The notes under the pieces: generated by a model | Database searches by the model: none | What the model was told of the DNA's origin: nothing | What the model saw: the letters and a program-made list of their open reading frames with translations, nothing else | Made by a program: the position numbers and the translations under genes | Part shown: positions 1-64,000 of the stretch, piece after piece | Position numbering within the stretch: position 1 is the stretch's first letter | Layout of the letters: each line of letters opens with the position of its first letter | Virus record (IMG/VR): IMGVR_UViG_3300048587_000705 | Location: 34,643 to 98,642 of that record | Length of the DNA: 64,000 nucleotides | Reading direction: 5' to 3' (one strand) | Source of the DNA: a virus

Positions 1-3000
1 TACTCATATTGGTGTCTCGCTGTTTTTAATGCGCGTCCACTGTTCAGGTAGTTATATTGTGAAACACCTGCCATCATTTTAGATAGATATCGGAACCTTT
101 CAGTACTTCCCTTATAAGAACCTTGTTTTATTATATCCCCGGAGAACAAATCCTGTGCCTTAAATATATTCTGCACTATATTAAGCCCTATGATAGGCGA
201 TTCCAAAGTGTCGTTCACCGATGTCACCATCCCTATCTTCTGCACCGAACTTGTCTCGTTCAATAATCTCTGGTAGAAGTATGCCACTGCCTGCAATGCG
301 TACTGTTCTCCTTCCTCATCATCGTCCGCCGCGCCTACTATCAAATATCCTATCGCCGCCATAAGCGTCAATACCGATATATCCACCGCCACCCGTTTCA
401 GGTTCCTTCTCTCGGCAACAGAACTGTTCTTCCATTGTTCCTTAAAGGCGCGGATAAAGTTAGCGGTCCCCATTTTTCTCAGTTCCTGTACCGAGGCGTT
501 CAAAAAGTTCGCGGCGCTTCTGTATGTACCCTCTTCAAGTTCCCCCGTCATGGGATTATAGAACTCCGAGCGGGTGCGTCTTGAAATGTTCGTTATAAGG
601 AAACTCCTGTGGGTCAATAATATGGAAAAAAGTGCGTTCCTCTGTGCTGCCACCCTTGTCTCTGTGGGTATCTGTGTATCGACGTTCAGTATTATCTCGC
701 CCATACGGGTCTGTATCCCCTTTACCTTGTTGTCAAGATACTGTTTGAACCTCTCGTCCGACATTGGGTTGCCGTCGGTATCTGTGAGCAAGGTCTTTAA
801 CTTTTGCTCGTCAAAGGACAGTATTCCATCGTTTACATCTATAAAGTTGTAAAAGGCGTTTTCTTCCTGTGCCCTCCAAAGGCTGTCTATCTCCTTTTTG
901 GTCTTTCCTTTGTTCAGATCGTTGAAGTTGTTGCGGTTTATAATGGAGCCGTCCACTACCCTGTAATCGAACAACGTTCCAAGCGCCACCTCTCCGTACA
1001 ATGGGAAGTTCGCAAGTTCGTGCAGCCCCATGGAAATTTTGGGCAAAAACCTTGCGGCGCCCGAGTAGTTACTGTTCTGTAGGCTCTCAAGTGCACTGAA
1101 TGCACGGAAATGTTGTAGAATAACATTGAGCTTTGATTTTTTGCCCAATTTGTTGAAATCCCCCATTGCCTCGGGCATAAGTTTTGTAAGTGCCCTACGA
1201 CCGAGTTTCAGGGAATCCCTGCCTATGTGCTCACCTACAAGGCTCTCTATCAAAAGCTGTACCTTTCCCGTTATGGCGGAAGTGATGGGGATAATTGCGT
1301 TCAGTCCAAGGTTTCGGAACTTTACGTATTTCACTATGTTCCTTACCACCTTTGCCACGTCCACTTTGCCCAAGAACGGTACGTCCACCTCATAAGTCCA
1401 AGTCTCCTTTACCCCAAAGAGCGTGTAGTCCATAAAGTTCTGGAACATTTTGTAGGTGTTGGTGGCGGTCACCTCTTTACCGTTCCCTGTTGTCCTTTTG
1501 TCAATGGCGTCGGAAAGTGCCATGATGTCGCCATAGGCGTTGAGCCTTGCGCGTTTCAAGAACCCTTCTGAATTTCGTGCGGCAATGGACCAGAAAAGGT
1601 CGTCTGATACGTCCTCTTGGTTCTCCAATCTGTTGGTGCCTATGTTGGGTATCACCTTTATACTGTTACCAAACTGTGTTTCCCCTTGTATAAGCTCATC
1701 GGGGGTAAAGGTAATAGCTTCCGTCCAAGCCTCCTTTATACTCTGGGCCGAAAGGTTCTTTGTCAGGTCCTTTGCCCGTTGTATGGTGCCCTTTCTAAAT
1801 TGTGGCATGGTGTACCTGTTATAGGTGCCGCCTATCTGCATCGCATCGAGCCCCTCGCTGTTCCATTCGAGCGTTGCCTTGTATGCCTCGTACAGTTTGG
1901 GGTCGTTCTTTATTTTTTCAAAATCCTTGTTGTAATATTTGGACAGTTTCGGTTGGTCGTACCCACCGTAGAACTCTGGGATAAAATTTGGGTTTAGGTC
2001 GTCCACACCGCCTATCTCCAAAAAGGATGTATTTGGCGCTATCTCTATATAGTTGTAGGTTCCTTGTTTTATGGACTCCACCTTGTTCTTTGCGGGGACG
2101 TTCGGGTCCTGCATTGCCTGTAGGAACACCCCGTACTGTGACGGTGCAAAACGTTTGTAGTATGGCAACAACCTTCTTGTAATAAGCTGTTCCACTACCT
2201 GTTGCTTTACCCGTATGTCCTCCAAGTCCTGCATCTCCCAACCGTTTTCGTCGAGTACGCTGTCGATTGCCTTGTTTGTCTTTTCACCTGTCTTTCCTTC
2301 AAGGTATCGGTTCAGAAAATAGATGGCGTCGGACAGCCCCTTTGCGTTGTCGGCGGTCATATGTTGGCGGGCATACTCCACCTGCTCGTCCAGCTTCCTG
2401 TTTATTTCCTGTGCGCTGTCGTTCTCCTCGATGTTCAGTCCAAGGTCTATCAATATCTTTCGGTAGCTCTCGTTGGTCGTGGTCTCGGTATCAACGTCAC
2501 TAAAGGTCTCGCCCGTCTGTTCCTCTATAAGTTTTGACGCCTTTCTATAGGCGTTGGTGATATCTTCCTGTAGTTTTTTTACCGCGTCCCTTGTAACGGA
2601 CGGCATACGCTGTACGTCTATCTCGGAAGGGTTGTTCTTGTGCTGGAACTGTTTGAGAATTGCCTTTAACGCCTTTCCCTTTGTATCGAGGGTTTCCAAT
2701 ATAGCGTCCACCTCTGCCATATTGTCCCCTGTATACACCTCTGGTGCCGTTATCTTTTCACGCAGGGACTGGTTCTGTTGCAGGTCGTTCCAGAACTGGT
2801 CGGAAAATCCCATGTAAGAGTTCAGTTTCAAAAAACGCATCCCTTCCTCTGGACTTACCTCAAAGGCTTTCTGTAACATATCAAAGAACTTGGGAGATAT
2901 CCTTCTGTCCTTTGACGCCATAAAATCATCTATCTCTTTTTGAGAAGGGTCTTGCCCGTTATTGTTGATTTTATACTGCTCTGTAAACTGCTCAACGGTT

Positions 3001-27000: not shown

Positions 27001-30000
27001 CCATATTGTGCGGGGACATAATTTTTAAGGGAAAAATAGGGGGATGCAACATTTTTTATATATTCTTCTGATTTTCCCTCTGGGCAATTCTCCTCTCCCG
27101 CCGTAAACCTACTCGAAGAGCTATAATTTCTTTCATTATTATCGTAGTTTATATACTCGCTTGGATACTCTATGTGTATCGGTTGGTCATTATCATCATA
27201 TCCAAAAGAAATATACAAGCTCTGTTCCCTATCTATGTTGTTTATGTGGGATATGTTTCCCTGTTTATCGGTTATGTTGTTTATACCGCTGTTTATCTTT
27301 CCTATCCCGGATATCCCTCTTAACCTTTGTTCGGGCTGGTGCTCGTTGAGCATGTAATTGTAGTGTCCTACCCCTGTGTTGCGTGAGGCAAAATTATACG
27401 GTGTCCCAAGGTCCTTTATCGTTTTTAACCATTGTAGCCTATACTGCCCTACTTTTACAAAAGCGTTCGCTATAACAGCTATCGCACGGAGTATGTACAG
27501 TATTATACCCGCCACGTTCAGGGAGACCACAAAGCCAAAGTCGAGTCGGAATACCTCCATACTCTCCGTAAGGCCGAGCGCCACCTCTATCACACCCTCT
27601 ATAACGGCTAGTTTTGTAGCGGTCTTTTTTGCGTCCTTGCCCAATATTACCCATTTGGGGTGATCCTTTACTTCGGTAATAGTGTTCGTTGAGTCGCCAA
27701 AAAGGTACCCTTCTATGTTCACCTCGGTGGGGTTAAGTTGTATGTTGCTGTATATGTCTGGTGACATAAACATAAACTTGTGGTTCTTTTCACTGTTAAA
27801 AGGATGTTCCAATGGGTCGTCACTGTTGTCCTTGAAATATTTGTTCTTTCCGAGGTCGTTAAATGGAAAATTGGAGTACTCTACATCTTTTCCTTTTTCT
27901 GTATATTTCATACTATCAAAGGCCACTCCTTTTGCCTGTATACTTTTGTTGCCGACCCTGTTACCGTACATTATCTCGTACCCCACTATGGAATCCCTTT
28001 GTGCTTGGGTTATCAAAGAATTGTTAACAGCTATATCCAAAAAAGAGTTTATAATATTCTCGTCTATGGTCATACCTATGGGGTACACTATCGAGTCGGT
28101 AAACGGTGCCATCTCTATAGGTGATATGAAAGGGGATACCGCTGAATCTGGATACTTAAAATGTCTTATCGGCTGACATATAAAATTTGAATCTTTTAAA
28201 GTGTATATTTCCGCAGTTCCTGTTGTGTATGTTTCCTCAAACTCGTCCACTATGCTCTCTGGAATGTCATCTGGCGTTATTATAAGTCCAGAAGAATCAT
28301 ACAGTTGTGTGTTGTCTGGATATGTCTCTATACTCTCCCAATAGGAAAACTTACCTGTCTCAAATGATTGTGGTGCACAGTCATTTGGTTGTGGCACTTC
28401 ATACATACAGGTGGCAACATATTTTTGGCTCTTGTTAATCCCTATACTATCAAATGTCACCCGTACCTCTGAAAACTCTATTGGGCGGGTAAAAATAGAA
28501 AAGCAGTCCCAAGGGGGTACTGTCATATAAATATCTGGTTCTATATCTCCAGAAAAAGAAACAGAATTATATATAGGTGCTTCAACCGAAACTAAAAAAC
28601 TTTTTCTTGTAAGCGGTAGGTAATCAGGACTGAGTGTGTCTTCCGTATCAAATATTTGAAATATTCCATCATCTTTTTCAAATATATACGTTCTAATAGG
28701 TTCTCGTGAACTGCAATTGTCCCATATACTTACCCTCAAAGACGATTCCACTTTTAAAACCGCTTGTATTTGCCGAACTATGTCCAATCTTCTGGCAAAA
28801 GTCTCTCCATTTTGTGGAACTTCATACCAAGGCTTTTTTGTAAGGGGTGTCATGTCAAATACAAACCTTGGCTCATCTGGTTGTACAAATCCTTTGAACC
28901 ATATTGCTCCCTTATGTAGCCCCGGATACCATCCATTGGCACTTGGCCCCAATACTACAGTGCCATTTAAATCTCCTGTTAGATTTATTATCGTAATAGT
29001 AGATGACGATGATATAAATGTAAGTGTCTCCCCATCAGCCGTAACAGTGATATCAAGCGCGTCCAATGCAGCAGCGTGGTCAGTTACAAAATCTGTAGCT
29101 GTCTGTGTAAGCGACGTGTTGAAAGTAGAAAGGTAGTCTACGCCTCCTACATTGATGTTGGCCGTTCCAGATGTTCCTGTTAAGGTTACAGAATTACTTA
29201 CCGTAAAAGTATAGCTTGTATCATAAAGGTCTGCCAGCACTATCTCATCCCCCTCTCCCGGCTCCGTTTCAGGTAAAGTGCCATATATCGCTAAATGATA
29301 AGCCTGTCCTACTATATCTTCATCAACTTTATGTACTATTTCTTCCGCGTAGTTACACTTTTCTTGGAATTCTGTCGAGACTCTTACTCCTAAAAATAGC
29401 GTCTCCGTTGTTGTTGTAGGATCTAACCACCTGTTTGGAATAAGAAGGTCTATACGTTCATCCTGTATAACTTGTCCGTCATCACCATATTCGTTTACAT
29501 AACAGTATTCTGGTGGGGTGGATGGTATGTATTCTTCGATTTCTTTTTCTATAAACATCGCGACCTCTCCCTCTACACCATTTATTGATAGTTTTGGGTC
29601 ACCATCCTTTTCTGGGTATTCACATGTGTCGGGAAATAATGTTTCCGATACCTCGCCGTCAAGGTCGCCTGTCAAGGTGGTAATAGTTATAACCGTTGGG
29701 TACATACCTTTAAAGGCGAGTATTCCCACATCTGCCGTTACCGTCACACCCTCTATTAATAATGCGGCGGCGTGCGTTGTTACAAAATTGTCCGCCGTAG
29801 TGGTGAGGTCGGACGCGAACGTTACGAGATAATCAACTCCCTCTACGTTAATATTGGCCGTACCTGATGTACCTTCTAATTCCACGAGCCTGTCCACGTC
29901 GGGGCAGTCTGGGTATGTGGTGTTAAGATATTCCTGTATAAGGAGTATAGTGGTGTCCCCTCCATTGTAATAGTATATATACTCGTAATTGTCGTTTATA

Positions 30001-33614: not shown

Positions 33615-33750
33615 AGTTATAAATTTTAATGATAAATAATATTCATTTTAATTCTCAACGCTTCTACGAAATTAGCCTCCATTTCACATCGCTGTGAACT
33701 TTTGGTCTTACTATCTCTCCACGTTTATAATCCGCATTAACTCCTACGGT
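33615..33750 (-). ncRNA. Putative cis omegaRNA scaffold of the TnpB; guide about 33595-33614
   Basis: Overlaps the tnpB 3' end. Hairpin CCGUA/UGCGG whose loop AGUUA complements the terminal UAACU (pseudoknot); ACGUGGAG...GUAAGAC...GAAGCGU core. Confidence 0.7.
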
Positions 33751-34827
33751 TTTTCTTTTTATTGTTTTGGAAGCGTTCAAATCTCTGTCCATTTTTATGT
33801 TACCACATCCTGTACATACAAATTCCCTGTCTGATAATTTCACATGTTGTATATTTTCACACTCGTGGCACTCTTTTGTTGATGGCTCAAAAGTACCTAA
33901 AAGAACCACATCTTTATTGTAACCAAATTTTTGCTTGTAGCTTATAAAAGTTTTAAGTTTAGACATTGACGTATCAGATATTGATTTTGACATTGTTTTG
34001 GATGTTAGCATTCTGGTTATATCCAAATTTTCCATTCCTATTTCGTTATAGTTATCAACTATATACCTACTTATGTTGTGTAGATGCCACTCTCTCTGAT
34101 TTTTTATTTTTTTGTGTACTTTGGCAACTTTTAATTTTTGCTTCTTATATCTGTTACTTCCTTTTTTCTTTCGACTTAAATGTCGTTGTGCCCTTTTTAG
34201 TTCTGCGTGGTTCTTGTCAAAACATCTTGGGTTATCAAATTGTAATCCATCACTTAATGTTACAAGTGATGAAACACCTAAATCTATACCTACATTGGGT
34301 TTTTGTTTTTTATTTTCATAGTTTGTTTTCTCTATTTCAAATGATATTGATACATAATAGTCGCCACAAGACTCTTTTGATATCGTGGCTCTTAAAAGAT
34401 AGGCATCTTTGGGTATATTCCTATCTTTTTTAAACTTAACTTTACCAATTTTTTCAAGTTGTATTGTATTTCCCTTTATTTTAAATTTTTGATTGGGGAG
34501 TCTATAGGTTTGCCTTGAATATTTATTTTTATATTTGGGTGCGCCTATTAATTTCTTACGTTTATTGTTAAAGAATTGTGTTTTAGTTTGTTGAAAGTCT
34601 CTTATTTTTTGTTGTAGTGCTGCTTGACTTACCTCCCCTATCCACTCAAACTCTTGTTTTAGTTCTTTTGGAGTTCTGTAAATAGGTTTAGGAAGATTTT
34701 CTTTATGATAGCTTTTAAATACATCTACGTAGTGATTCCATATAAATCTTACACAACCAAAGGTTTTAGAAAATAACTCTTGTTGTGTTTTATTGGGATT
34801 TAATTTATATTTAAAAGATAATACCAC
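33664..34827 (-). CDS. tnpB: TnpB RNA-guided endonuclease (IS200/IS605 superfamily), no TnpA in the window
   Basis: HTH FKYKLNPNKTQ..FGCVRFIWN; RuvC-I GIDLG, RuvC-II MENL, zinc finger CHEC...CTGC, RuvC-III DRDLNAS, all intact. AT-rich relative to flanks. Confidence 0.95.
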   Translation of the reverse strand: MVLSFKYKLNPNKTQQELFSKTFGCVRFIWNHYVDVFKSYHKENLPKPIYRTPKELKQEFEWIGEVSQAALQQKIRDFQQTKTQFFNNKRKKLIGAPKYKNKYSRQTYRLPNQKFKIKGNTIQLEKIGKVKFKKDRNIPKDAYLLRATISKESCGDYYVSISFEIEKTNYENKKQKPNVGIDLGVSSLVTLSDGLQFDNPRCFDKNHAELKRAQRHLSRKKKGSNRYKKQKLKVAKVHKKIKNQREWHLHNISRYIVDNYNEIGMENLDITRMLTSKTMSKSISDTSMSKLKTFISYKQKFGYNKDVVLLGTFEPSTKECHECENIQHVKLSDREFVCTGCGNIKMDRDLNASKTIKRKTVGVNADYKRGEIVRPKVHSDVKWRLIS

Positions 34828-44964: not shown

Positions 44965-45606
44965 TTATATGTTTTTTAGTATGTTGTAATAGTGGTTGGT
45001 TCTCTCTATACGCTCTTTTAAGTGGTTTGGTGTATATCTTGAATTTGGGTTGCCGAGGTTTACATGTTTTGACACTTTTGTAATGTTCTGCGTGTTCACT
45101 GTCTTGGTATTGTCCCACACATCGTTTTCGTTGAAATAGTACAGGGCGGATTCAAAGTAGTATTTATCAGCGATTTTTTCAGGGTTGTCCAATATGGACA
45201 TATCTCCCATCTTTTGGGCAAAACGCTCGTGGTTGTTTTTAAATGTTATTTGAATTGCCCCTTGCCCCCTATATCTCCATCCATCACCTGACTCCTCGTC
45301 TCCGTTCCCACCTTGGTTAGCGTACACTCTGTTAGCTATTTTCTCAGGCTTACGAGCATATTTATCAGCCAACTCTTTCGTAGGGAAGTATTTACCAAAC
45401 GTAGCTAACAGCCCTTGTGCAGAATAATTTAAATTCTCCGTTCCATACCTAAAACCCCCAGTTTCCACATCAGCTTGCCCAAGCAAAAAAGCTGTTTCTT
45501 CTTTGTTGGTGCCGAACAGTTCCATCATTTTTGTCAAGGTCTTTTTGCCTATTATACCGTCAGGATAAAGCCCGTTCTCTTTTTGAAATTTTTTTATGTA
45601 CTTCAA
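44965..45606 (-). CDS. Endolysin: peptidoglycan-binding domain + glycoside hydrolase family 19
   Basis: FQKENGLYPDGIIGKKT; ETGGF...ENLNYS...IANRVYA..GNGD..SGDGWRYRGQGAIQIT. TTG start supplied by the 99-bp element. Confidence 0.9.
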   Translation of the reverse strand: MKYIKKFQKENGLYPDGIIGKKTLTKMMELFGTNKEETAFLLGQADVETGGFRYGTENLNYSAQGLLATFGKYFPTKELADKYARKPEKIANRVYANQGGNGDEESGDGWRYRGQGAIQITFKNNHERFAQKMGDMSILDNPEKIADKYYFESALYYFNENDVWDNTKTVNTQNITKVSKHVNLGNPNSRYTPNHLKERIERTNHYYNILKNI

Positions 45607-45703
45607 AATTGTATGTATTAAGTTAATAATGTTTACTTACTGCTTCACTGGATGCCCGTCGGCGTGTCCTCCACAGTCACTTCGGGTATTTTTAGCCCTG
45701 TTT
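45605..45703 (-). mobile_element. 99-bp protein-less omegaRNA-like element, copy 1
   Basis: 5 mismatches to 59679-59777; GGG/CCC hairpin with AAAAU loop, ACUGUGGAG...GAAGCAGU core, AUUUU end. Confidence 0.7.
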
Positions 45704-45730
45704 ATTAAATCTTTATTATGAAATAACTAC

Positions 45731-46141
45731 CTATTTTCTTTTGTACGGTTGTTTTGTATTGTGGTGATGGTCATTGTCGCCGTAGTCATATCTATCGTAT
45801 CTTCCACTACCTTCGTTTCCAGATCCATATACCTCTCCGCGCCCACCAAGCATCCTGTTTACCTTGTCGAGTACTATATCAGGCATCTTCTCTATCGCCA
45901 CCTTTACCAGCCCTATACCTATTATTCCCCCAACTATCCCTATGATACCCACCCATCCACGTATGTCAAAGTTTATGGAAAGCTCGTAGTCCAAAAAGGC
46001 TATGGCAAAGGCCGTTATTATTATGAACATCAATTTTGTGCGGCTGTTCGTATGGTTGTTTATCTCGTAGAACGCTCTTACCAACGACCCCACCAAAGAT
46101 GTTATCAGTGCTATGGCAAGCACGTTGTATTCGAGTTCCAT
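45731..46141 (-). CDS. Putative holin
   Basis: Three TM helices and a charged tail; adjacent to the endolysin. Confidence 0.65.
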   Translation of the reverse strand: MELEYNVLAIALITSLVGSLVRAFYEINNHTNSRTKLMFIIITAFAIAFLDYELSINFDIRGWVGIIGIVGGIIGIGLVKVAIEKMPDIVLDKVNRMLGGRGEVYGSGNEGSGRYDRYDYGDNDHHHNTKQPYKRK

Positions 46142-56244: not shown

Positions 56245-58944
56245 CTACCATTGTCTCCTTCTTCCCTGCGGAAAAAGTCCTCTTGGCTTACGGTTGTTTT
56301 TTAGTTCTTGCAAGCGTTTTTCTTTTAGTCTTATCTCTTCGTCGGTGAGGGGAACTTTTGGGTACATCCCGTTAGCGCTAAAATAATAGTCCGCTCCCGT
56401 CGCACTCATCAAGGATATGATAGTATCCACGTTCTCTCCGGGCCTATAATTTATCATCTCATCGAGTACCCTTATATCTTTATACCTCTCAAATCCCCAT
56501 TTTATTTGTGGGTTGCCGTTTTCATCTTCATAAGTATCCGTTTTTTTAGTGATTGTATTTAAAATACCAAAAAATAAATCTTTGTTCTTTTTTGTAGGAG
56601 TCCATCCAAATTGTCTTCTGCCGTTGTTGTCTATATCTATCTCTGATGTCCCGTCAAAAGATTTTATAAGGTATTTGTCGGTTATGTGGCTACCCAGACC
56701 GTCCAAGAATGTCTTGAAGCCCATATCGGCATTTTCCATAAATACGGGTGCGTTGTACATCTGTATCAACATGTAGATAGTCTTGTAAAACAGGGCGTGG
56801 GGATCCGGCCTTGTATGGAGTGACGCAACTATTTTTCCGTTATCCCTTCTTATTATCGTAAATGACCCAAGTGAGTCGCCGTCAGCTTCTTCAAACTTAT
56901 AATCGTCGAGACCGCAGAGGTAGAAACCGAACGGGGCATTTGGTAAAGGCTCTTCATATATAGTTGGTGGGGAGTCATGAAAACCACCGCTAAAGGGTAC
57001 GTCTGGGTAATCTTTGTCAGATAGTCCTGTTATGACAATATTGTCCTGTTTATCATATCCGAGTACCACTTTTCTCCCAACATCACCTGTTTCTATAAGT
57101 TTTTCTTTATAGAGTTTTATTTCCTCTTGGGGAAAGGGGTTTGTCTTTCCTGAAAGAAATATTTCTTCTGGGTTTATGGGAAAATATACTTTCTCTTTTG
57201 TAAGGGATAATTTGTTGTTTTTTCTGTCCTCTCTTCTTTGCTTTAATATTTTATAGGATTCCCCCCAATCAGTTACTTGTATCTTTATTTTACTCAATTT
57301 TTTACCTTCTTTAGACAGATATTCGTTTAAAGAGATCTCTTTTCTAGTGTGCAATGTTATCACGCTCATCTGTGCGGGAAGAAAAGTTCCAAATTTTCTC
57401 CTTTTCCAAGTAATGTGCTCTTTTGGTATATTTCTTTCGAGCGCGTCCCAGTCCATCTCTGTTATATCCTCTTTCTCTGGATCTTTTAATACTGTCAAGG
57501 CATCTTTTGAAAGGTTTTCATTACCCCCGGTCCCAGAAAGTATGGGAACGCACCTTTTTACGCCCCCGGATTCAAAAGCAGGTTTTGCAGCTTCGAGTTG
57601 TTTTATGAACGGCGCTTTCATACATTCGTCAAGTACAAAGGCGTCGGGCGTAAACCCCGCAAGTACCTCTGACTTACTGTCCCCGCCACTATCAAGGTTT
57701 ATAATGTTCAGGGTACAGAAGGTAATGTTTTTTTGGTTTCTTTTCTTTACCCCCAGTTCTATTTTTTTTGTCCAGTCACCCGATGTATTTGGCAGTTCAA
57801 ATGCTGGGTTGCAGTTTATTACGGTTTTTTTAAAATTTTTCTCTATCTGCCCCAAATCCTTTGCGCTTCCCCCTGCAACTATAAGTTCTTTTCCGCCCTT
57901 TAACGCCGACCATTGTAGGTGCGATGCTATCAATGTTGTCTTTGCGGCACGTCGGGTGGCACATAAAAACATCATTCTGTTTTCTTTTTGTGCGTTCTGA
58001 AAACTGTCCTGTATTATGAACCACTCATTGTCCCTAAGCGGTGGGTTCATCATCTCATCATTGGACTCCATTATACCAGACCTCTCGTTGAATTTAAGTA
58101 CTGGTATGTCTGTTTTAAAAACATTCAGGTGGCAGTACATCCAAGGTGTTATATATACACCGTCGATTGTTATACCGTTTCTTATTTTTTTAAATTCATC
58201 AACGTAAAATTGCAGCGTCTTTTTATCCTGCTCAAAATAATGTTTTTCCTCGTTCCATACTGGTGGGTTTTCGATGTGTATCAACATCTCGTTTTTTGGC
58301 GGGCTTGTAAAATCTATCCCTAAAGACTCTACTTTTTTTCTCACCTCGGGGTATTCATTCTCTATCGCCTCACGTAGACTTAACGGAGCTTTTTTATTAT
58401 CCCTTAATTCAAGTATTGAGTCGTTGTTCTGGTTGTCAATATTGAGCTTGGTTATCTCATCATTTAGTTTTGCCTGATTTTTATAGAGCATGTCATCGAA
58501 CTCGATCTCGTCGCTCTGGTAATCCTTTTGCGTCTTCTTTTCGTCGTTCTCCGTGATTTCGACCTCCCCCAAAACAGAAGAAGACGATATATAATCGTCT
58601 ATCCTGTTGATGTGTATCTTTATAATAGACAACATCCTGTTTATTTCAGTCTTTACTTTGCTATCGTGCCTGTCAGCTTCCGTATTTTGTACAAAATGCT
58701 TTAACCTGTCAAGTATCGTGGTCGCTATCTTATGCTGTATCTTATATTCGGGCTCCTTTCCCTCAGCGAGCGTTTCTCCTTTGAATTTTATGTCCTTTAT
58801 GTAGTAGTATTTGGAATAGGTTATTTTCCCCTCGTTATTCCTTACCACCTGTGGCTTTGACCAATCGTTGTCCTTAAAGTACTTTTGGTATTTTTGGAAT
58901 TGGGGCTTGTTCTTTTTGACGAAAGATTTTAAAAAAGTGCTCAT
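56245..58944 (-). CDS. terL: Terminase large subunit with long N-terminal extension
   Basis: PPLRDNEW, Walker A RRAAKTT, Walker B FVLDE, SGTGG, nuclease GLDDY...SLGS, N.D. Confidence 0.9.
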   Translation of the reverse strand: MSTFLKSFVKKNKPQFQKYQKYFKDNDWSKPQVVRNNEGKITYSKYYYIKDIKFKGETLAEGKEPEYKIQHKIATTILDRLKHFVQNTEADRHDSKVKTEINRMLSIIKIHINRIDDYISSSSVLGEVEITENDEKKTQKDYQSDEIEFDDMLYKNQAKLNDEITKLNIDNQNNDSILELRDNKKAPLSLREAIENEYPEVRKKVESLGIDFTSPPKNEMLIHIENPPVWNEEKHYFEQDKKTLQFYVDEFKKIRNGITIDGVYITPWMYCHLNVFKTDIPVLKFNERSGIMESNDEMMNPPLRDNEWFIIQDSFQNAQKENRMMFLCATRRAAKTTLIASHLQWSALKGGKELIVAGGSAKDLGQIEKNFKKTVINCNPAFELPNTSGDWTKKIELGVKKRNQKNITFCTLNIINLDSGGDSKSEVLAGFTPDAFVLDECMKAPFIKQLEAAKPAFESGGVKRCVPILSGTGGNENLSKDALTVLKDPEKEDITEMDWDALERNIPKEHITWKRRKFGTFLPAQMSVITLHTRKEISLNEYLSKEGKKLSKIKIQVTDWGESYKILKQRREDRKNNKLSLTKEKVYFPINPEEIFLSGKTNPFPQEEIKLYKEKLIETGDVGRKVVLGYDKQDNIVITGLSDKDYPDVPFSGGFHDSPPTIYEEPLPNAPFGFYLCGLDDYKFEEADGDSLGSFTIIRRDNGKIVASLHTRPDPHALFYKTIYMLIQMYNAPVFMENADMGFKTFLDGLGSHITDKYLIKSFDGTSEIDIDNNGRRQFGWTPTKKNKDLFFGILNTITKKTDTYEDENGNPQIKWGFERYKDIRVLDEMINYRPGENVDTIISLMSATGADYYFSANGMYPKVPLTDEEIRLKEKRLQELKNNRKPRGLFPQGRRRQW

Positions 58945-59449: not shown

Positions 59450-59680
59450 CTACTGTGTAAAAAGTTCTGTTTCTGCCGTTTCTTTTGTCTTTGCGCTCTC
59501 TATGGCGTTCAATATCTGCTCGTTGGTGAGTTCTTTTACGTCCGATAGTTTTCCCGTGCCGTTCTCGAAAGTCGCTATCCTCAGAAAACTGAAAAGGATT
59601 TCACCCAACGTATATTCTGGGTATTCACCTATCAATGCCTTTATCTCGTTTATCGCGGCGATTTTATGTGTACTGCTCAA
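59450..59680 (-). CDS. Hypothetical protein; TTG start supplied by the 99-bp element
   Basis: 76 aa, YPEYTLGEILFS. Confidence 0.65.
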   Translation of the reverse strand: MSSTHKIAAINEIKALIGEYPEYTLGEILFSFLRIATFENGTGKLSDVKELTNEQILNAIESAKTKETAETELFTQ

Positions 59681-59777
59681 AATTGTATGTATTAAGTTGA
59701 TAATATTTACTTACTGCTTCACTGGATGCCCATTGGCGCGTCCTCCACAGTCACTTCGGGTATTTTTAGCCCTGTTT
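59679..59777 (-). mobile_element. 99-bp protein-less omegaRNA-like element, copy 2
   Basis: Near-identical to 45605-45703; fills almost the whole intergenic space. Confidence 0.7.
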
Positions 59778-59780
59778 ATA

Positions 59781-60128
59781 TTATTTGTCTGAAATTTTTC
59801 CTGTTAGTCTTAGTGTCGTTTTGTGGCGCTCACCGTTCTCGGTGTACATAATGTGGATGTCTTTCTGTATCTGCCCCGCGTCCTTGTTCTTTACCCACTC
59901 TATATCAGCGGTAAAATTTTTTCCGTCAATTTTGTTGAGTTTAGATTTTACACGGCAGGTGCAACCACTCTGTATGCTCACGGCGGAAGCGTCACTGTCA
60001 AAGACTAAAGAAATGTTAAACTTACTTTGAAAGCCTTTTTGTTTTGTGCCGTAATCGGCGACAAACTTATGGTCACCTTCTTTTGTAAGTGTGACCATCT
60101 GTGGTGTGTTATTTGTTATGTTCAGCAT
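59781..60128 (-). CDS. Ig-like (DUF1573-like) protein
   Basis: DYG...SGCTC...K.I......L.LTGK. Start uncertain; the internal ATG (MLNIT) is preferred over 60191. Confidence 0.55.
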   Translation of the reverse strand: MLNITNNTPQMVTLTKEGDHKFVADYGTKQKGFQSKFNISLVFDSDASAVSIQSGCTCRVKSKLNKIDGKNFTADIEWVKNKDAGQIQKDIHIMYTENGERHKTTLRLTGKISDK

Positions 60129-60147
60129 TTTTATGTTTATATTAAAT

Positions 60148-60429
60148 TCAGTTTTCCTCTTCTTCGGTCCATTTTGGTTCAAGCCCCTCATCCTTTAGCG
60201 AGCAGTATTCCTCGGGAAGTATTGCTTTGTACTTTATCCCGCAGTCACACAGTGTGCATTGTGCGTTGAACCAGTTGAGTACGTACCATTTCCAGTCGTG
60301 CCAAGTCTTGTTTTTCTTGTTGTGGAAATATAGGGGGCACCCCCTGCAAATATCAAGCCTTTTTTGGTACCAGTCCGGTGCCTTGCTTTTTTTCTTTAAA
60401 CGGGATTTAATTATCTTTTTCCAGTCCAT
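60148..60429 (-). CDS. Small zinc-finger protein
   Basis: RLDICRGCP...CTLCDC.I..K......C....KW. Confidence 0.7.
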   Translation of the reverse strand: MDWKKIIKSRLKKKSKAPDWYQKRLDICRGCPLYFHNKKNKTWHDWKWYVLNWFNAQCTLCDCGIKYKAILPEEYCSLKDEGLEPKWTEEEEN

Positions 60430-61727: not shown

Positions 61728-61734
61728 AAAAATT

Positions 61735-61929
61735 ATGGAAAAACTTAAAAAATGGTGGGAGTCCACTGGAATGACCAACCTCGCTTTCTTGGCGGTGGGT
61801 ATCGGGGGAAAGATTTTGATGGGGAGCAACCTTATCTTGGGCGCGGGACTCGGAATATTTTTGTACGTCAACTTTAATGTCATACGTAAACTGTTCAAAG
61901 AGAGCCAGTTGGAAAATAAAAGTGAATAA
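61735..61929 (+). CDS. Small two-TM membrane protein
   Basis: 64 aa with Gly-rich hydrophobic helices. Confidence 0.6.
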   Translation: MEKLKKWWESTGMTNLAFLAVGIGGKILMGSNLILGAGLGIFLYVNFNVIRKLFKESQLENKSE

Positions 61930-61934
61930 AAAGT

Positions 61935-61974
61935 TTGACAAATTTGGAATTGTTAAATAAAAGTCGTATGTTTG
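61935..61974 (+). promoter_or_regulatory. Bacteroidota -33/-7 promoter with upstream TTGACA
   Basis: TTGACA-AA-TTTG-N20-TATGTTTG. Confidence 0.75.
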
Positions 61975-61998
61975 TATTTTAAATCATAAAATTTAATT

Positions 61999-62272
61999 AT
62001 GAAAGAGGATAGGGATTACGATGATATTATAGAGTTTGGAAAAACTGGTATGAATATTGTAGGAGATACCGAATACAGTCCTGTAAAACAAGATTTTTCT
62101 TGGGATAAAATGGGCGGAGGCTCAACAATATGATATCAATCCCCCGCACGCCTCTGACACAAGCGCAATTTGCGGGGCTTTATTAAAAAATAAAAAGACA
62201 GGACAGGTGAATCTGAACAGCGAAAGCAGGATTACAAAGTCTGAACAGTCTTTTTTTAAAATAAAGGAGTAA
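61999..62272 (+). pseudogene. 44-aa ORF (61999-62133) with a possible +1 frame continuation to 62272
   Basis: MKEDRDY...FSWDK, then after the AAAA run WAEAQQYDINPP...FKIKE* in the +1 frame. Confidence 0.35.
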
Positions 62273-62367
62273 TAAACAAAAACACCGTACCCCGTAAGGT
62301 AAGTGCTGTCGGGGCGAATACAAGAAAACCTATAAGGCACTGGCTGTGAGGTGACACAGACTCCTTT
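62263..62367 (+). ncRNA. Candidate structured RNA
   Basis: GC-rich island: AAAGGAGT/ACTCCTTT closing stem, CCCCG/CGGGG and CTGTG/CACAG hairpins, AGTGCT/GGCACT pseudoknot. Confidence 0.4.
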
Positions 62368-62404
62368 TTTAGTTCTTTACATACGAATACATCGGTATTA
62401 AAAT

Positions 62405-62540: not shown

Positions 62541-64000
62541 TTGCGGAAAACTAAAAAATACACTTACTCCCTTCCCTCGGCACTTGTCGGGGAAATAAAG
62601 CGTATTTTTCCAAAAGACAGCGTCATGTCAAAAAACGACAGAAAAAGGGCGTTCCGTTTTTTCCATACTCTCACTACAAAATCACAGTTGCAGAACGGTA
62701 CCCCGGACGGGTATGTCGAGCTTTCGGCAAGCTACCTTAGAAAAATGTACTCTGGAAACTATCTAAGGTTCCTTAACTCTCTTAGAGAAAACGGTCTTAT
62801 AGAAGGGTACTCCACCGACACGTCAAAAGATTCCTATACAACAGCAAGGGCGACAAACGACTTCACCATGATAAAAGGCAAAGAAAGGAAACCTGTTGCA
62901 AAAAAAATGCGTCTTTGCCCAAAATATTCTTTTGTCTTTTCTTTTATTAACAAAGATAATATAAAAATAAATTCAAATAACAACATTAAATTACAGGATG
63001 ATTTTAAGTTGTTGCCAACTTTTTGCCAAGCCCCGTTAACACAGGTGTCGTACGAGTATTCATCAAAGTCAAAAAAAGAGGATGACGTACTTTTTGAGCA
63101 GGAGTTCTCGGACATGGTGTCAAAGGTAAATATAGACTACCAAAAACTTTATAAAAAGGCACAAGATATTTGTGACAACATTGATGTAAAAAAATACATT
63201 GCCAGCGAGTACGAGGATATGGACAACGTGGTGCCAGTCACCGTGGTCACTTGGGGAAGTTCCGTCCCAATGTCCATATCCTCTGCGTTTAAACTGGCAG
63301 AGAGTAGGTACGAGACACTTTTCAAGGTAAAAGGACGTTATTATATAGCTGGAAGGGAACAGTTCTCAGAGAGGCTGAAAACAAGTAAGTACGCGTCGTA
63401 CGTAAGTTCGATAGACAGGTTGATGGGCGGGGACCTTACGGCAAAAAGAAACGGAACGAACAGAAGGCTCGATACCAATTTTACAAACATGAAGTCCGAC
63501 CTTTTCGGGATAATATGCAAGGACAACGACCTTGTGCAGATAGACCTGTCCAACAGCCAGTTCGCCATACTCGCAAACTACCTGAAAAACGTAAAAGAAA
63601 TGGATACCCCTGATTTTGATATGTTCTATAAAGATGCCATATCTGGAAACCTGTACGAAAAGATATCCAAAAGGACGGGGATAGCCAGAGAGGATGCAAA
63701 GACACTTATGTTCCAGATAATGTTCAACAAGACGGGGGCAAGGATAAAGCACAAAGAGCTTCTTTACGAAATGTACCCTTCGGTCATGGAATATATAGAT
63801 TCTTTTAAAAAACACAGGGGGTATAAAAAATTTTCCGTATATTTGCAGAACCTTGAATCAAAGATATTTATAGACGGTCTGTACCCGTTGATAAAACAGT
63901 GTACGGATATTGTATTTACAAAGCATGATTCGGTTGTTTGCAGAAAAAGGGATTTGGATATAGTTACCGATACCATAAAAGAATATTTCGAGGATAAAGG
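62541..64000 (+). CDS. PolA/T7-polymerase-fold replication protein with no evident exonuclease domain; runs off the window
   Basis: Absent from the ORF track (no stop in window). TTG 62541 or in-frame ATG 62625. Manual translation: NRRLDTNFTN, IDLSNSQ (motif A), REDAKTLMFQIMF (motif B), LQNLES, TKHDS (motif C). Confidence 0.75.
   Translation, partial: MRKTKKYTYSLPSALVGEIKRIFPKDSVMSKNDRKRAFRFFHTLTTKSQLQNGTPDGYVELSASYLRKMYSGNYLRFLNSLRENGLIEGYSTDTSKDSYTTARATNDFTMIKGKERKPVAKKMRLCPKYSFVFSFINKDNIKINSNNNIKLQDDFKLLPTFCQAPLTQVSYEYSSKSKKEDDVLFEQEFSDMVSKVNIDYQKLYKKAQDICDNIDVKKYIASEYEDMDNVVPVTVVTWGSSVPMSISSAFKLAESRYETLFKVKGRYYIAGREQFSERLKTSKYASYVSSIDRLMGGDLTAKRNGTNRRLDTNFTNMKSDLFGIICKDNDLVQIDLSNSQFAILANYLKNVKEMDTPDFDMFYKDAISGNLYEKISKRTGIAREDAKTLMFQIMFNKTGARIKHKELLYEMYPSVMEYIDSFKKHRGYKKFSVYLQNLESKIFIDGLYPLIKQCTDIVFTKHDSVVCRKRDLDIVTDTIKEYFEDK

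What the first reader, a model, noticed from the sequence alone, without database searches (positions are those of the whole stretch)
45603..45705. Protein-less 99-bp omegaRNA-like element inserted inside the endolysin start codon (AT^G)
Seen: this segment recurs at 59677-59779 with 5 mismatches in 103 bp. On the minus strand it has a GGG-CUAAAAAUA-CCC hairpin, an ACUG-UGGAG...GAAG-CAGU core, a GCC/GGC hairpin whose loop differs between copies, and a final AUUUU that complements the AAAAU loop. Removing 45605-45703 joins TTTAAT to GAAGTAC, recreating ATG AAG TAC; with the element present the gene starts at TTG. Known: TnpB omegaRNAs have this layout, with the pseudoknot marking the scaffold end and flanking DNA acting as guide. 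Inference: a minimal guide-RNA cassette whose guide (GAAGUACAUAAAAAAAUUUC) targets the empty allele of a related phage, while its own allele is protected because ATTTT replaces the TAM. This would be an RNA-only homing or phage-competition element, and it also rewrites the endolysin leader. Two independent clues (pseudoknot end and ATG reconstruction) give the same junction.
Basis: partly seen in the sequence, partly recalled or inferred. Interest (0 to 1): 0.9.

Follow-up and report, generated by a model that had tools for sequence, protein, structure and literature searches.

The report
Gene-less TnpB guide-RNA module in start codons
A 99-base remnant of a jumping gene, keeping only the guide-RNA scaffold of the nuclease TnpB, sits exactly inside the start codons of two genes of a marine Flavobacteriaceae-type phage and rebuilds them as TTG; it is an unusually small variant of a known kind of element.

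Summary
The repeat is real: two copies, 5 mismatches in 103 nt, and no others in the 98.6-kb viral record. Both lie on the gene (minus) strand. Removing 99 nt restores ATG-AAG-TAC (endolysin) and TAA-T-ATG-AGC (76-aa gene). Fourteen related phages have ATG directly at these junctions and lack the element, so it is an insertion.

The core of the element (5' hairpin, CUGUGGAGGA, variable hairpin, CCAGUGAAGCAG) matches RNA modules found immediately 3' of tnpB genes in Serratia, Bradymonadia, cyanobacteria and a class-level sample of MAGs centred on a Muribaculaceae genome. That structure covaries strongly. A covariance model built only from ten tnpB-linked examples finds exactly these two sites in the phage (E about 9e-5). 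The omegaRNA-like reading is therefore supported.

Several points are not supported or were not tested:
- The element has no recognisable left end, no GC-rich right-end hairpin and no conserved TAM.
- The proposed pseudoknot is no better than chance.
- None of the phage's three TnpB loci carries this scaffold class.
- Guide function, homing and phage competition remain inference.

Gene-less omegaRNA elements (PATEs) are already described, and this scan has noted similar mini-elements and start-codon-rebuilding TnpB elements on other DNA. Verdict: a new variant of a known kind, of moderate interest.

The parts
45605..45703 (-). Copy A, minimal 99-nt insertion (equivalently 45606-45704). The shared block is 45603-45705.
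   Evidence: Alignment. Deletion restores ATG AAG TAC, and relative L003 starts ATG AAG TAC ATT AAA AAA TTT CAG. Model hits: R1 E 1.6e-17, R2 E 9e-5.
59679..59777 (-). Copy B, minimal 99-nt insertion. The shared block is 59677-59779.
   Evidence: Alignment. Deletion gives TAA-T-ATG-AGC. Thirteen relatives have the stop abutting or overlapping ATG here. Model hits: R1 and R2.
45684..45698 (-). Hairpin 1 of copy A (GGG-CUAAAAAUA-CCC). Copy B equivalent: 59758-59772.
   Evidence: It aligns with hairpin 1 of tnpB-linked scaffolds. All 4 pairs of this helix covary in the protein-selected set.
45640..45676 (-). Conserved core of copy A: CUGUGGAGGA, variable hairpin, UCCAGUGAAGCAG. Copy B equivalent: 59714-59750.
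   Evidence: The same words lie at tnpB 3' ends in L027, L029, L030, L032 and L028. The outer stem covaries as AU, CG and UA. Three of the 5 differences between copies lie in the loop or bulge of the variable hairpin.
45605..45639 (-). AU-rich 3' tail of copy A with a weak AUUA/UAAU hairpin. Its last two U's form the TT of the TTG start. Copy B equivalent: 59679-59713.
   Evidence: Sequence and fold. It lacks the GC-rich hairpin and the GUUC(AC) terminus of its relatives.
44965..45606 (-). Endolysin gene (PG_binding_1 + GH19 lysozyme/chitinase-like), TTG start. The putative guide would be its first 16-20 nt.
   Evidence: ORF, Pfam, homologues with the same N-terminus.
45731..46141 (-). Upstream 136-aa hydrophobic protein (holin-like by position). 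Its stop lies 25 nt before the reconstructed ATG.
   Evidence: ORF. No Pfam match.
59450..59680 (-). 76-aa gene upstream of the terminase module. TTG start, no in-frame ATG anywhere.
   Evidence: ORF. Homologues in 13 related phage loci, all starting with ATG.
59781..60191 (-). Upstream 136-aa gene. Its TAA stop lies 3 nt before copy B.
   Evidence: ORF. In the homologues, the stop abuts the next ATG.
33664..34827 (-). Resident TnpB ORF (one of three in the record). A possible trans partner, but not of this scaffold class.
   Evidence: Pfam PF07282 hit, ORF, no R1 or R2 hit and no BLAST similarity to the element. It is 33-36% identical to TnpBs of the broader family.

Best explanation
The element is a stand-alone copy of the guide-RNA (omegaRNA) scaffold and right-end module of an IS200/IS605-type TnpB transposon. 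It has lost tnpB and any recognisable left end. It entered this phage lineage and now sits at two gene junctions, co-oriented with the genes, exactly within the ATGA of a start codon. Its U-rich 3' end turns ATG into TTG and supplies an AU-rich, unstructured leader, so both interrupted genes (endolysin and a 76-aa gene next to the terminase module) remain translatable. That is why these two insertions survive in a tightly packed genome. Shown: the repeat, the insertion relative to relatives, the ATG reconstruction, and homology plus shared covarying structure with tnpB-linked RNAs. Inferred: mobilisation in trans (the mechanism is unresolved), and that it is transcribed within the operon. If a compatible TnpB is available, the resulting RNA would carry the first codons of the downstream gene as its guide, giving the standard TnpB retention or homing logic.
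For: There are two copies at 95% identity with unrelated flanks, and they are the only ones in the record. All 13 terminase-region relatives, plus Cellulophaga phage phi17:2, have the stop abutting ATG at site B. The endolysin relative L003 has ATG at the same codon. The scaffold was not found in 10 related phage records. The core motif lands at tnpB 3' ends in 4 of 5 genome hits and in 3 of 7 metagenome hits (L025, L026 and L027). A model search found further tnpB-linked examples. Ten of 30 tnpB loci chosen by protein similarity carry it, always just 3' of tnpB. In those ten, 98% of cells are paired against 79% in shuffles, and 8 of 12 pairs show double changes. Model R2, built without the element, finds only the two copies in 100 kb (E 9e-5). 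An unbiased BLAST against GenBank phages hits only the edge of an IS1341-family transposase gene. A second tnpB-less, left-end-less module with the same 5' boundary exists in a Muribaculaceae MAG. At 99 nt, the scaffold is about the size of the trimmed, still active ISDra2 omegaRNA.
Against: There is no adjacent tnpB. None of the three resident TnpB loci, nor the PATE reported earlier in this genome, shares the scaffold. No counterpart exists of the left end mapped in sister families, nor of their GUUC(AC) terminus or GC-rich terminal hairpin. The left flanks share only AT, so insertion next to a TAM, as TnpA would do, is not evident. The pseudoknot is not above chance and the fold energy is unremarkable. 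R1 and the first hits were ascertained with words taken from the element itself, and A4 was selected by R1, so the tests are not fully independent. The relatives showing empty sites are distant (34-56% terminase identity, 49% endolysin identity).
Confidence: 0.75

Rival explanations
1. Active RNA-only guide cassette. The scaffold plus the first 16-20 nt of the downstream gene is loaded in trans onto a TnpB, either from this phage, from the missing 35% of its genome, or from the host. The complex cuts element-free alleles in co-infecting relatives, driving homing or excluding competitors.
For: The core motifs are 100% intact in both copies, whereas the solo copy L039 has decayed in them. All 5 differences between copies fall at unpaired positions (chance about 0.07). 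The phage carries three TnpB ORFs of the same broad family. PATE omegaRNAs used in trans are an accepted idea.
Against: No cognate scaffold is present at any resident TnpB. The conserved terminus and terminal hairpin seen in tnpB-linked relatives are missing. No TAM is shared by the two empty sites beyond AT (or ATGA in another register). No expression or binding data exist. Homing alone does not explain copies at two different loci.
Confidence: 0.25
2. Inert relic that is merely tolerated. The module has no RNA function now, and selection acts only on the TTG and the AU-rich leader that keep the two genes expressed.
For: It lacks tnpB, a left end and the canonical right-end terminus. There is no thermodynamic signal. 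A comparable decaying solo copy exists elsewhere. With only two copies, 95% identity may simply reflect recent duplication.
Against: The core words are perfectly preserved in both copies and are identical to those of distant tnpB-linked RNAs. Substitutions avoid paired positions, although this is weak evidence.
Confidence: 0.45
3. Native cis-regulatory leader or portable promoter/translation cassette (like the PeSL cassettes of T4-type phages) duplicated in front of two genes and unrelated to transposons.
For: The element lies exactly 5' of two start codons and includes the start codon. It has an AU-rich 3' half suited to Shine-Dalgarno-independent initiation in Bacteroidota (general knowledge, not tested here).
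Against: Homology and shared covarying structure with tnpB 3' modules. Relatives lack any spacer at these junctions. No other copies precede other genes.
Confidence: 0.1

Closest known systems
PATE-like, protein-less IS200/IS605 mini-elements that encode omegaRNAs (Geobacillus stearothermophilus ISGst families; Meers et al. 2023, PMC10055086)
   Same: It has no protein gene, keeps the TnpB guide-RNA scaffold, would have to be served in trans by a TnpB encoded elsewhere, and is present in several copies with different flanks.
   Different: PATEs keep both transposon ends with TnpA-recognised hairpins and sit next to a conserved TAM. This element is only 99 nt, shows no left end, no GC-rich terminal hairpin and no shared TAM, and lies inside start codons of phage genes.
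ISDra2 TnpB omegaRNA (116-nt scaffold, pseudoknot; trimmed ~98-nt version active; Nakagawa et al. 2023, PMC10097598)
   Same: Similar scaffold size. A multi-stem scaffold is followed directly by flanking DNA that would serve as the guide. The proposed 3'-end to 5'-region pairing has the same topology.
   Different: No sequence similarity was tested or claimed. The pseudoknot here is not statistically supported, and there is no adjacent tnpB.
tnpB-linked scaffolds of the class found here (L027, L029, L030, L032, L028/L036, L040-L043, L064-L066), weakly related to Rfam sot0042
   Same: The same hairpin 1, CUGUGGA core, variable hairpin, GAAGCAG and A-rich linker. The element is detected by a model built from these sequences alone.
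   Different: Those RNAs follow or overlap a tnpB ORF and end in a strong hairpin plus GUUC(AC). The element's tail is 35 nt of AU-rich sequence ending in UUUU.
Solo scaffold module L039 in a Muribaculaceae MAG
   Same: It lacks tnpB and a left end, and it starts 4-5 nt before hairpin 1, like the phage element.
   Different: It is 126 nt with the full right end, its core motifs have decayed, and it is not at a start codon.

Membership tests
TnpB omegaRNA / right-end RNA scaffold (IS200/IS605 superfamily) | Sequence and secondary structure shared with RNAs encoded at the 3' end of tnpB genes | tested here: met
   Alignment and RNAalifold. Ten protein-selected tnpB flanks covary. Model R2, built without the element, finds both copies at E about 9e-5 and nothing else in 100 kb.
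TnpB omegaRNA / right-end RNA scaffold (IS200/IS605 superfamily) | Encoded at or overlapping the 3' end of a tnpB gene | tested here: not met
   The upstream genes are a 136-aa membrane protein and a 136-aa phage protein. The TnpB ORFs lie elsewhere.
TnpB omegaRNA / right-end RNA scaffold (IS200/IS605 superfamily) | Pseudoknot between nucleotides just 5' of the guide and the 5' part of the scaffold | tested here: inconclusive
   An AAAAU/AUUUU pairing is possible, but equal or longer helices arise in 234-327 of 500 tail shuffles. The same test is also non-significant for the relatives.
TnpB omegaRNA / right-end RNA scaffold (IS200/IS605 superfamily) | Bound by a TnpB and guiding TAM-dependent DNA cleavage | not testable with these tools
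   This needs RIP-seq and TAM-library or plasmid-interference assays.
PATE / non-autonomous IS200/IS605 mini-transposon | No protein-coding gene; several copies with different flanks; empty sites in relatives | tested here: met
PATE / non-autonomous IS200/IS605 mini-transposon | Both left and right ends with subterminal hairpins like those of a TnpA-mobilised parent | tested here: not met
   The left ends mapped in sister families (...TATACTAGGAA...) and the right-end terminus UUUUGUUC / GUUCAC with its hairpin have no counterpart in the element. No Y1 TnpA is present in the record.
PATE / non-autonomous IS200/IS605 mini-transposon | Insertion immediately 3' of a conserved 4-5-nt TAM | tested here: inconclusive
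   The left flanks TTTAAT and AATAT share only AT. Both reconstructed empty sites contain ATGA, but the element splits it. Two sites are too few to decide.
Any curated Rfam family (including sot0042, HgcC, HEARO) | Score at or above the gathering threshold | tested here: not met
   No hit at gathering threshold in the window and none at E<=10 within the element. Rfam also misses the three resident TnpB loci, so this is weak negative evidence.

The most novel reading that the evidence does not exclude
A 99-nt, RNA-only guide cassette that borrows a TnpB encoded elsewhere (another element of the phage, the host, or a co-infecting phage). It is embedded in start codons so that it costs its carrier nothing, and it directs cleavage of element-free alleles of essential late genes in competing phages. 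It would then be a minimal, transposase-free and nuclease-free homing or exclusion device, spread by a route that needs no conventional left end.
Probability: 0.2. Interest if true: 0.8.

Novelty: new variant of a known kind. Interest (0 to 1): 0.45.

Why it matters
The element shows how far a TnpB element can be stripped down and still persist. Ninety-nine nucleotides, essentially the guide-RNA scaffold alone, sit inside the start codons of essential genes in a tightly packed phage genome, and the element itself repairs the damage by rebuilding ATG as TTG and adding an AU-rich leader. If the scaffold is still loaded by a TnpB in trans, the phage offers a compact natural case for testing RNA-guided homing or competition between phages, with guides aimed at the 5' ends of an endolysin and a terminase-module gene. 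It also matters for annotation: the collection's own gene call for the endolysin is a truncated 135-aa protein.

Tried and rejected
Searches and tools that gave nothing:
- Rfam at gathering threshold and at E<=10: nothing on the element.
- Exact and gapped core patterns and a codon-degenerate pattern in IMG/VR: no hits.
- Capsid-like and 76-aa proteins as probes for close relatives in IMG/VR: none.
- 'relatives' is not available for viral records.

Readings I considered and dropped:
- I first read the element's frame INRAKNTRSDCGG..PVKQ* as a TnpB C-terminus starting at the RuvC-III motif. I rejected the INRAKN part as coincidence once the alignment showed that hairpin 1 corresponds to a hairpin about 8 codons before CGG. 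The CGG...PVKQ correspondence with L027 and L030 stands.
- N-terminal truncation of the endolysin, suggested by the partial PG_binding_1 match, was rejected because L003 starts at the same residue.
- Intron, bypass, attC and terminal-inverted-repeat readings were considered from the sequence and dropped. The element is too small for known self-splicing introns, has no attC core sites and has no terminal inverted repeats.
- Alternative excision registers of 97 or 103 nt give a native TTG or a broken frame. They were judged less likely because all relatives use ATG.
- BLAST of the element against the three TnpB loci and the PATE gave only chance words.
- The crude start-codon survey was too noisy to use.

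Full report
OBSERVATION. The segment 45603-45705 recurs at 59677-59779 with 5 mismatches in 103 nt, and the flanks are unrelated. Two core words of 18 and 32 nt occur exactly twice in the window, where about zero matches are expected. BLAST finds only these two copies in the whole record. The window is bases 34643-98642 of a 98.6-kb IMG/VR viral record estimated to be 65% complete. All genes around both copies run on the minus strand.

Copy A lies between a 136-aa hydrophobic protein (45731-46141) and the endolysin (44965-45606), which carries PG_binding_1 and a sub-threshold GH19 match. Copy B lies between a 136-aa gene (59781-60191) and a 76-aa gene (59450-59680). That gene precedes a 165-aa gene and the 899-aa large terminase, which is 47% identical to TerL of Cellulophaga phages phi17:2 and phi4:1. 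Both downstream ORFs begin with a TTG whose two T's are the last two bases of the repeat, and the 76-aa ORF has no in-frame ATG at all.

IT IS AN INSERTION AT A START CODON. Deleting 45605-45703 yields GATTTA-ATG-AAG-TAC, and deleting 59679-59777 yields TAA-T-ATG-AGC-AGT (read). The junction is ambiguous by one T. The one IMG/VR endolysin relative, L003 (49% identity), begins ATG AAG TAC ATT AAA AAA TTT CAG, giving the same first eight residues as ours. This also removes the worry, raised by a partial PG_binding_1 match, that the gene is truncated at its N-terminus.

Thirteen loci related through the terminase (34-56% identity) all carry the 76-aa gene. In every one, the upstream stop abuts or overlaps its ATG, as TAATG, TAAATG or TAGATG. 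Cultured Cellulophaga phage phi17:2 reads TAA-GA-ATG at the equivalent junction. The scaffold model finds nothing convincing in ten related phage records, two of them at least 91% complete. The ~100-nt spacer is therefore specific to this lineage, and the ATG reconstruction is the most economical reading.

Other excision registers exist: 97 nt would give a native TTG, and 103 nt would break the frame. I consider them less likely because every relative uses ATG. The relatives are distant, however.

WHAT THE ELEMENT IS. Rfam gave nothing, and exact patterns found no copy in IMG/VR. A gapped pattern of the core (CTGTGGAGGA, 8-24 nt, TCCAGTGAAGC) found seven metagenome hits. One of them, L027, lies at the 3' end of a complete tnpB (...ADINGARNILAAGHAVLACGGTVQSDRPVKQEP...) just before a typical right end. 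That region weakly matches Rfam sot0042, the sense-overlapping transcript of IS1341-type tnpB (E 0.0013).

A similar pattern in one genome per species gave five hits:
- Two lie at the 3' end of full-length tnpB genes: L030 in Serratia (...ACGGMVQSGHPVKQEP) and L029 in Bradymonadia.
- One follows a decayed tnpB in a cyanobacterium (L032, the same sequence as metagenome hits L025 and L026).
- One lies downstream of a TnpB zinc-ribbon domain in a Muribaculaceae MAG (L028).
- One looks random (L031).

In the element the same frame reads CGG(H/R)A(D/N)GHPVKQ-stop.

Alignment and RNAalifold show a shared architecture: hairpin 1, a 4-5-bp outer stem, an inner GGA/UCC stem and a variable hairpin. The closing pair of the outer stem appears as AU in the element, CG in the proteobacterial type and UA in the Muribaculaceae and cyanobacterial examples.

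LESS CIRCULAR TESTS. Because the first hits were found with the element's own words, I ran three further tests.
- Model search. Covariance model R1 was searched in 151 genomes of the Muribaculaceae MAG's class. It found further examples directly 3' of TnpB ORFs (L037, L038). In L037 the 5' end AUACAUAGGG-loop-CCCGAA mirrors the element's AUAAACAGGG-loop-CCCGAA.
- Protein-selected loci. I collected 30 tnpB loci by protein similarity alone. Ten carry the core, always immediately 3' of tnpB. On these ten, 98% of cells pair, against 79% in shuffles and 36-53% when partners are slid, and 8 of 12 pairs show compensatory double changes.
- Model without the element. Model R2, built only from those ten sequences, finds exactly two places in the 100-kb phage record, the two copies, at 31.7 bits and E about 9e-5.

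In addition, a plain BLAST of the element against all GenBank phages returns one weak hit. It covers positions 30-69 of the shared 103-nt block at the edge of an annotated IS891/IS1136/IS1341 family transposase gene.

I conclude that the element is homologous to the guide-RNA scaffold module of a widespread TnpB clade. Some ascertainment bias remains, because A4 was selected by R1.

WHAT IT LACKS. Comparing three sister copies in each of two genomes fixed the transposon ends in the nearest architectures. The right end stops at ...UUUUGUUC, and the left end reads ...TATACTAGGAA.... Other relatives end in a GC-rich hairpin followed by GUUCAC. The phage element has none of these features. It starts 5 nt before hairpin 1, and after GAAGCAG it has only 35 AU-rich nucleotides with a weak AUUA/UAAU hairpin, ending in UUUU.

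Its left flanks, TTTAAT and AATAT, share only AT. Both empty sites contain ATGA, but the element splits that motif rather than following it. TnpA-type insertion next to a TAM is therefore not evident, and no Y1 transposase is encoded in the record.

Neither BLAST nor R1 or R2 links any of these to the element. TnpB1 and TnpB3 are 33-39% identical to TnpBs of the broad family, including scaffold-positive ones.

The proposed AAAAU/AUUUU pseudoknot has the topology of the ISDra2 pseudoknot. However, helices of that length arise in about half of tail shuffles, and the same test is non-significant in the relatives. The single-sequence fold energy is also unremarkable.

A PARALLEL CASE. In the Muribaculaceae MAG, L039 is 86.5% identical over 126 nt to the tnpB-linked module L036. 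The homology runs from 4-5 nt before hairpin 1 to the right end, and L039 has neither tnpB nor a left end. Solo scaffold modules with the same 5' boundary therefore recur. L039's core words have decayed, whereas both phage copies keep them intact. All five differences between the phage copies fall at unpaired positions. That is weak evidence (chance about 0.07) for constraint or for recent origin.

HOW IT MOST LIKELY WORKS.
- Shown: a tnpB-less scaffold module was inserted at two ATGA start sites, and its U-rich end rebuilds a TTG.
- Inferred: in a genome where stops and starts abut, only insertions that preserve both neighbouring genes survive, which explains the position. The AU-rich tail would serve Shine-Dalgarno-independent initiation typical of Bacteroidota (general knowledge, not tested here).
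- Inferred: the module is transcribed with the operon. The RNA scaffold would then be followed by the first codons of the endolysin or the 76-aa gene, which is where an omegaRNA guide sits.

Under the published model, TnpB guided by such an RNA cuts the element-free allele and so favours retention or homing (Meers 2023), and PATE omegaRNAs are thought to act in trans. Whether any TnpB loads this trimmed scaffold is untested. I put that at about 0.25. How the 99-nt unit moved to two loci without a left end is unresolved.

COMPARISON AND NOVELTY. The closest known things are PATE-like, protein-less IS200/IS605 elements that encode omegaRNAs. The phage element differs in several ways: it is only 99 nt, about the size of the trimmed active ISDra2 scaffold; it has no recognisable ends and no TAM; it sits inside start codons; and it rebuilds those codons as TTG.

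Earlier notes of this scan report gene-less omegaRNA mini-elements in phages, and TnpB elements that sit on start codons and rebuild them as GTG, on other DNA. I used these as leads only. I rate the element a new variant of a known kind, of moderate interest.

LIMITS. There are only two copies. The relatives are distant.

Noticed in passing
window 33664-34827 (-); G000 28651-29787 (+) and 481-1656 (+), both outside the window: The 98.6-kb phage record carries three TnpB-like ORFs (Pfam PF07282 hits) and no Y1 TnpA. TnpB1 and TnpB3 are 31% identical to each other. TnpB2 lacks a clear zinc ribbon in its C-terminus.
   Followed up: partly
L039 (G001:C52:6353-6427, minus) versus L036 (G001:C83): A Muribaculaceae MAG holds a tnpB-less, left-end-less 126-nt copy of its own tnpB-linked guide-RNA module (86.5% identity), with decayed core motifs and the same 5' boundary as the phage element.
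   Followed up: partly
window 44965-45606 (-): The protein collection's own call for this endolysin (P0003) is only 135 aa, 63% of the ORF. Automatic gene calling therefore seems to have missed the TTG start created by the element.
   Followed up: no
L070-L075 (G197 and G379 tnpB copies): In two sister IS families the octamer GAACAAAA lies just 5' of hairpin 1 and is the exact complement of the right-end terminus UUUUGUUC. This looks like an ISDra2-type pseudoknot, but a shuffle test in this AT-rich sequence was not significant.
   Followed up: partly
window 61728-61983, 62124-62376, 63368-63857 (-): A crude ORF survey lists further minus-strand ORFs of 80-160 codons with no in-frame ATG near the end of the window. 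Either non-ATG starts are not rare in this phage or these ORFs are spurious.
   Followed up: no
window 56245-58944 (-): The 899-aa ORF has no Pfam hit but is 47% identical to the annotated large terminase of Cellulophaga phages phi17:2 and phi4:1. This places the phage near that group of marine Flavobacteriaceae myoviruses.
   Followed up: partly
L032, L025, L026 (Xenococcaceae cyanobacterium and metagenome contigs): The same scaffold core follows a frame-shifted RuvC-III remnant (RDLNASLNLEN), so this appears to be a decaying tnpB with a preserved guide-RNA module.
   Followed up: no
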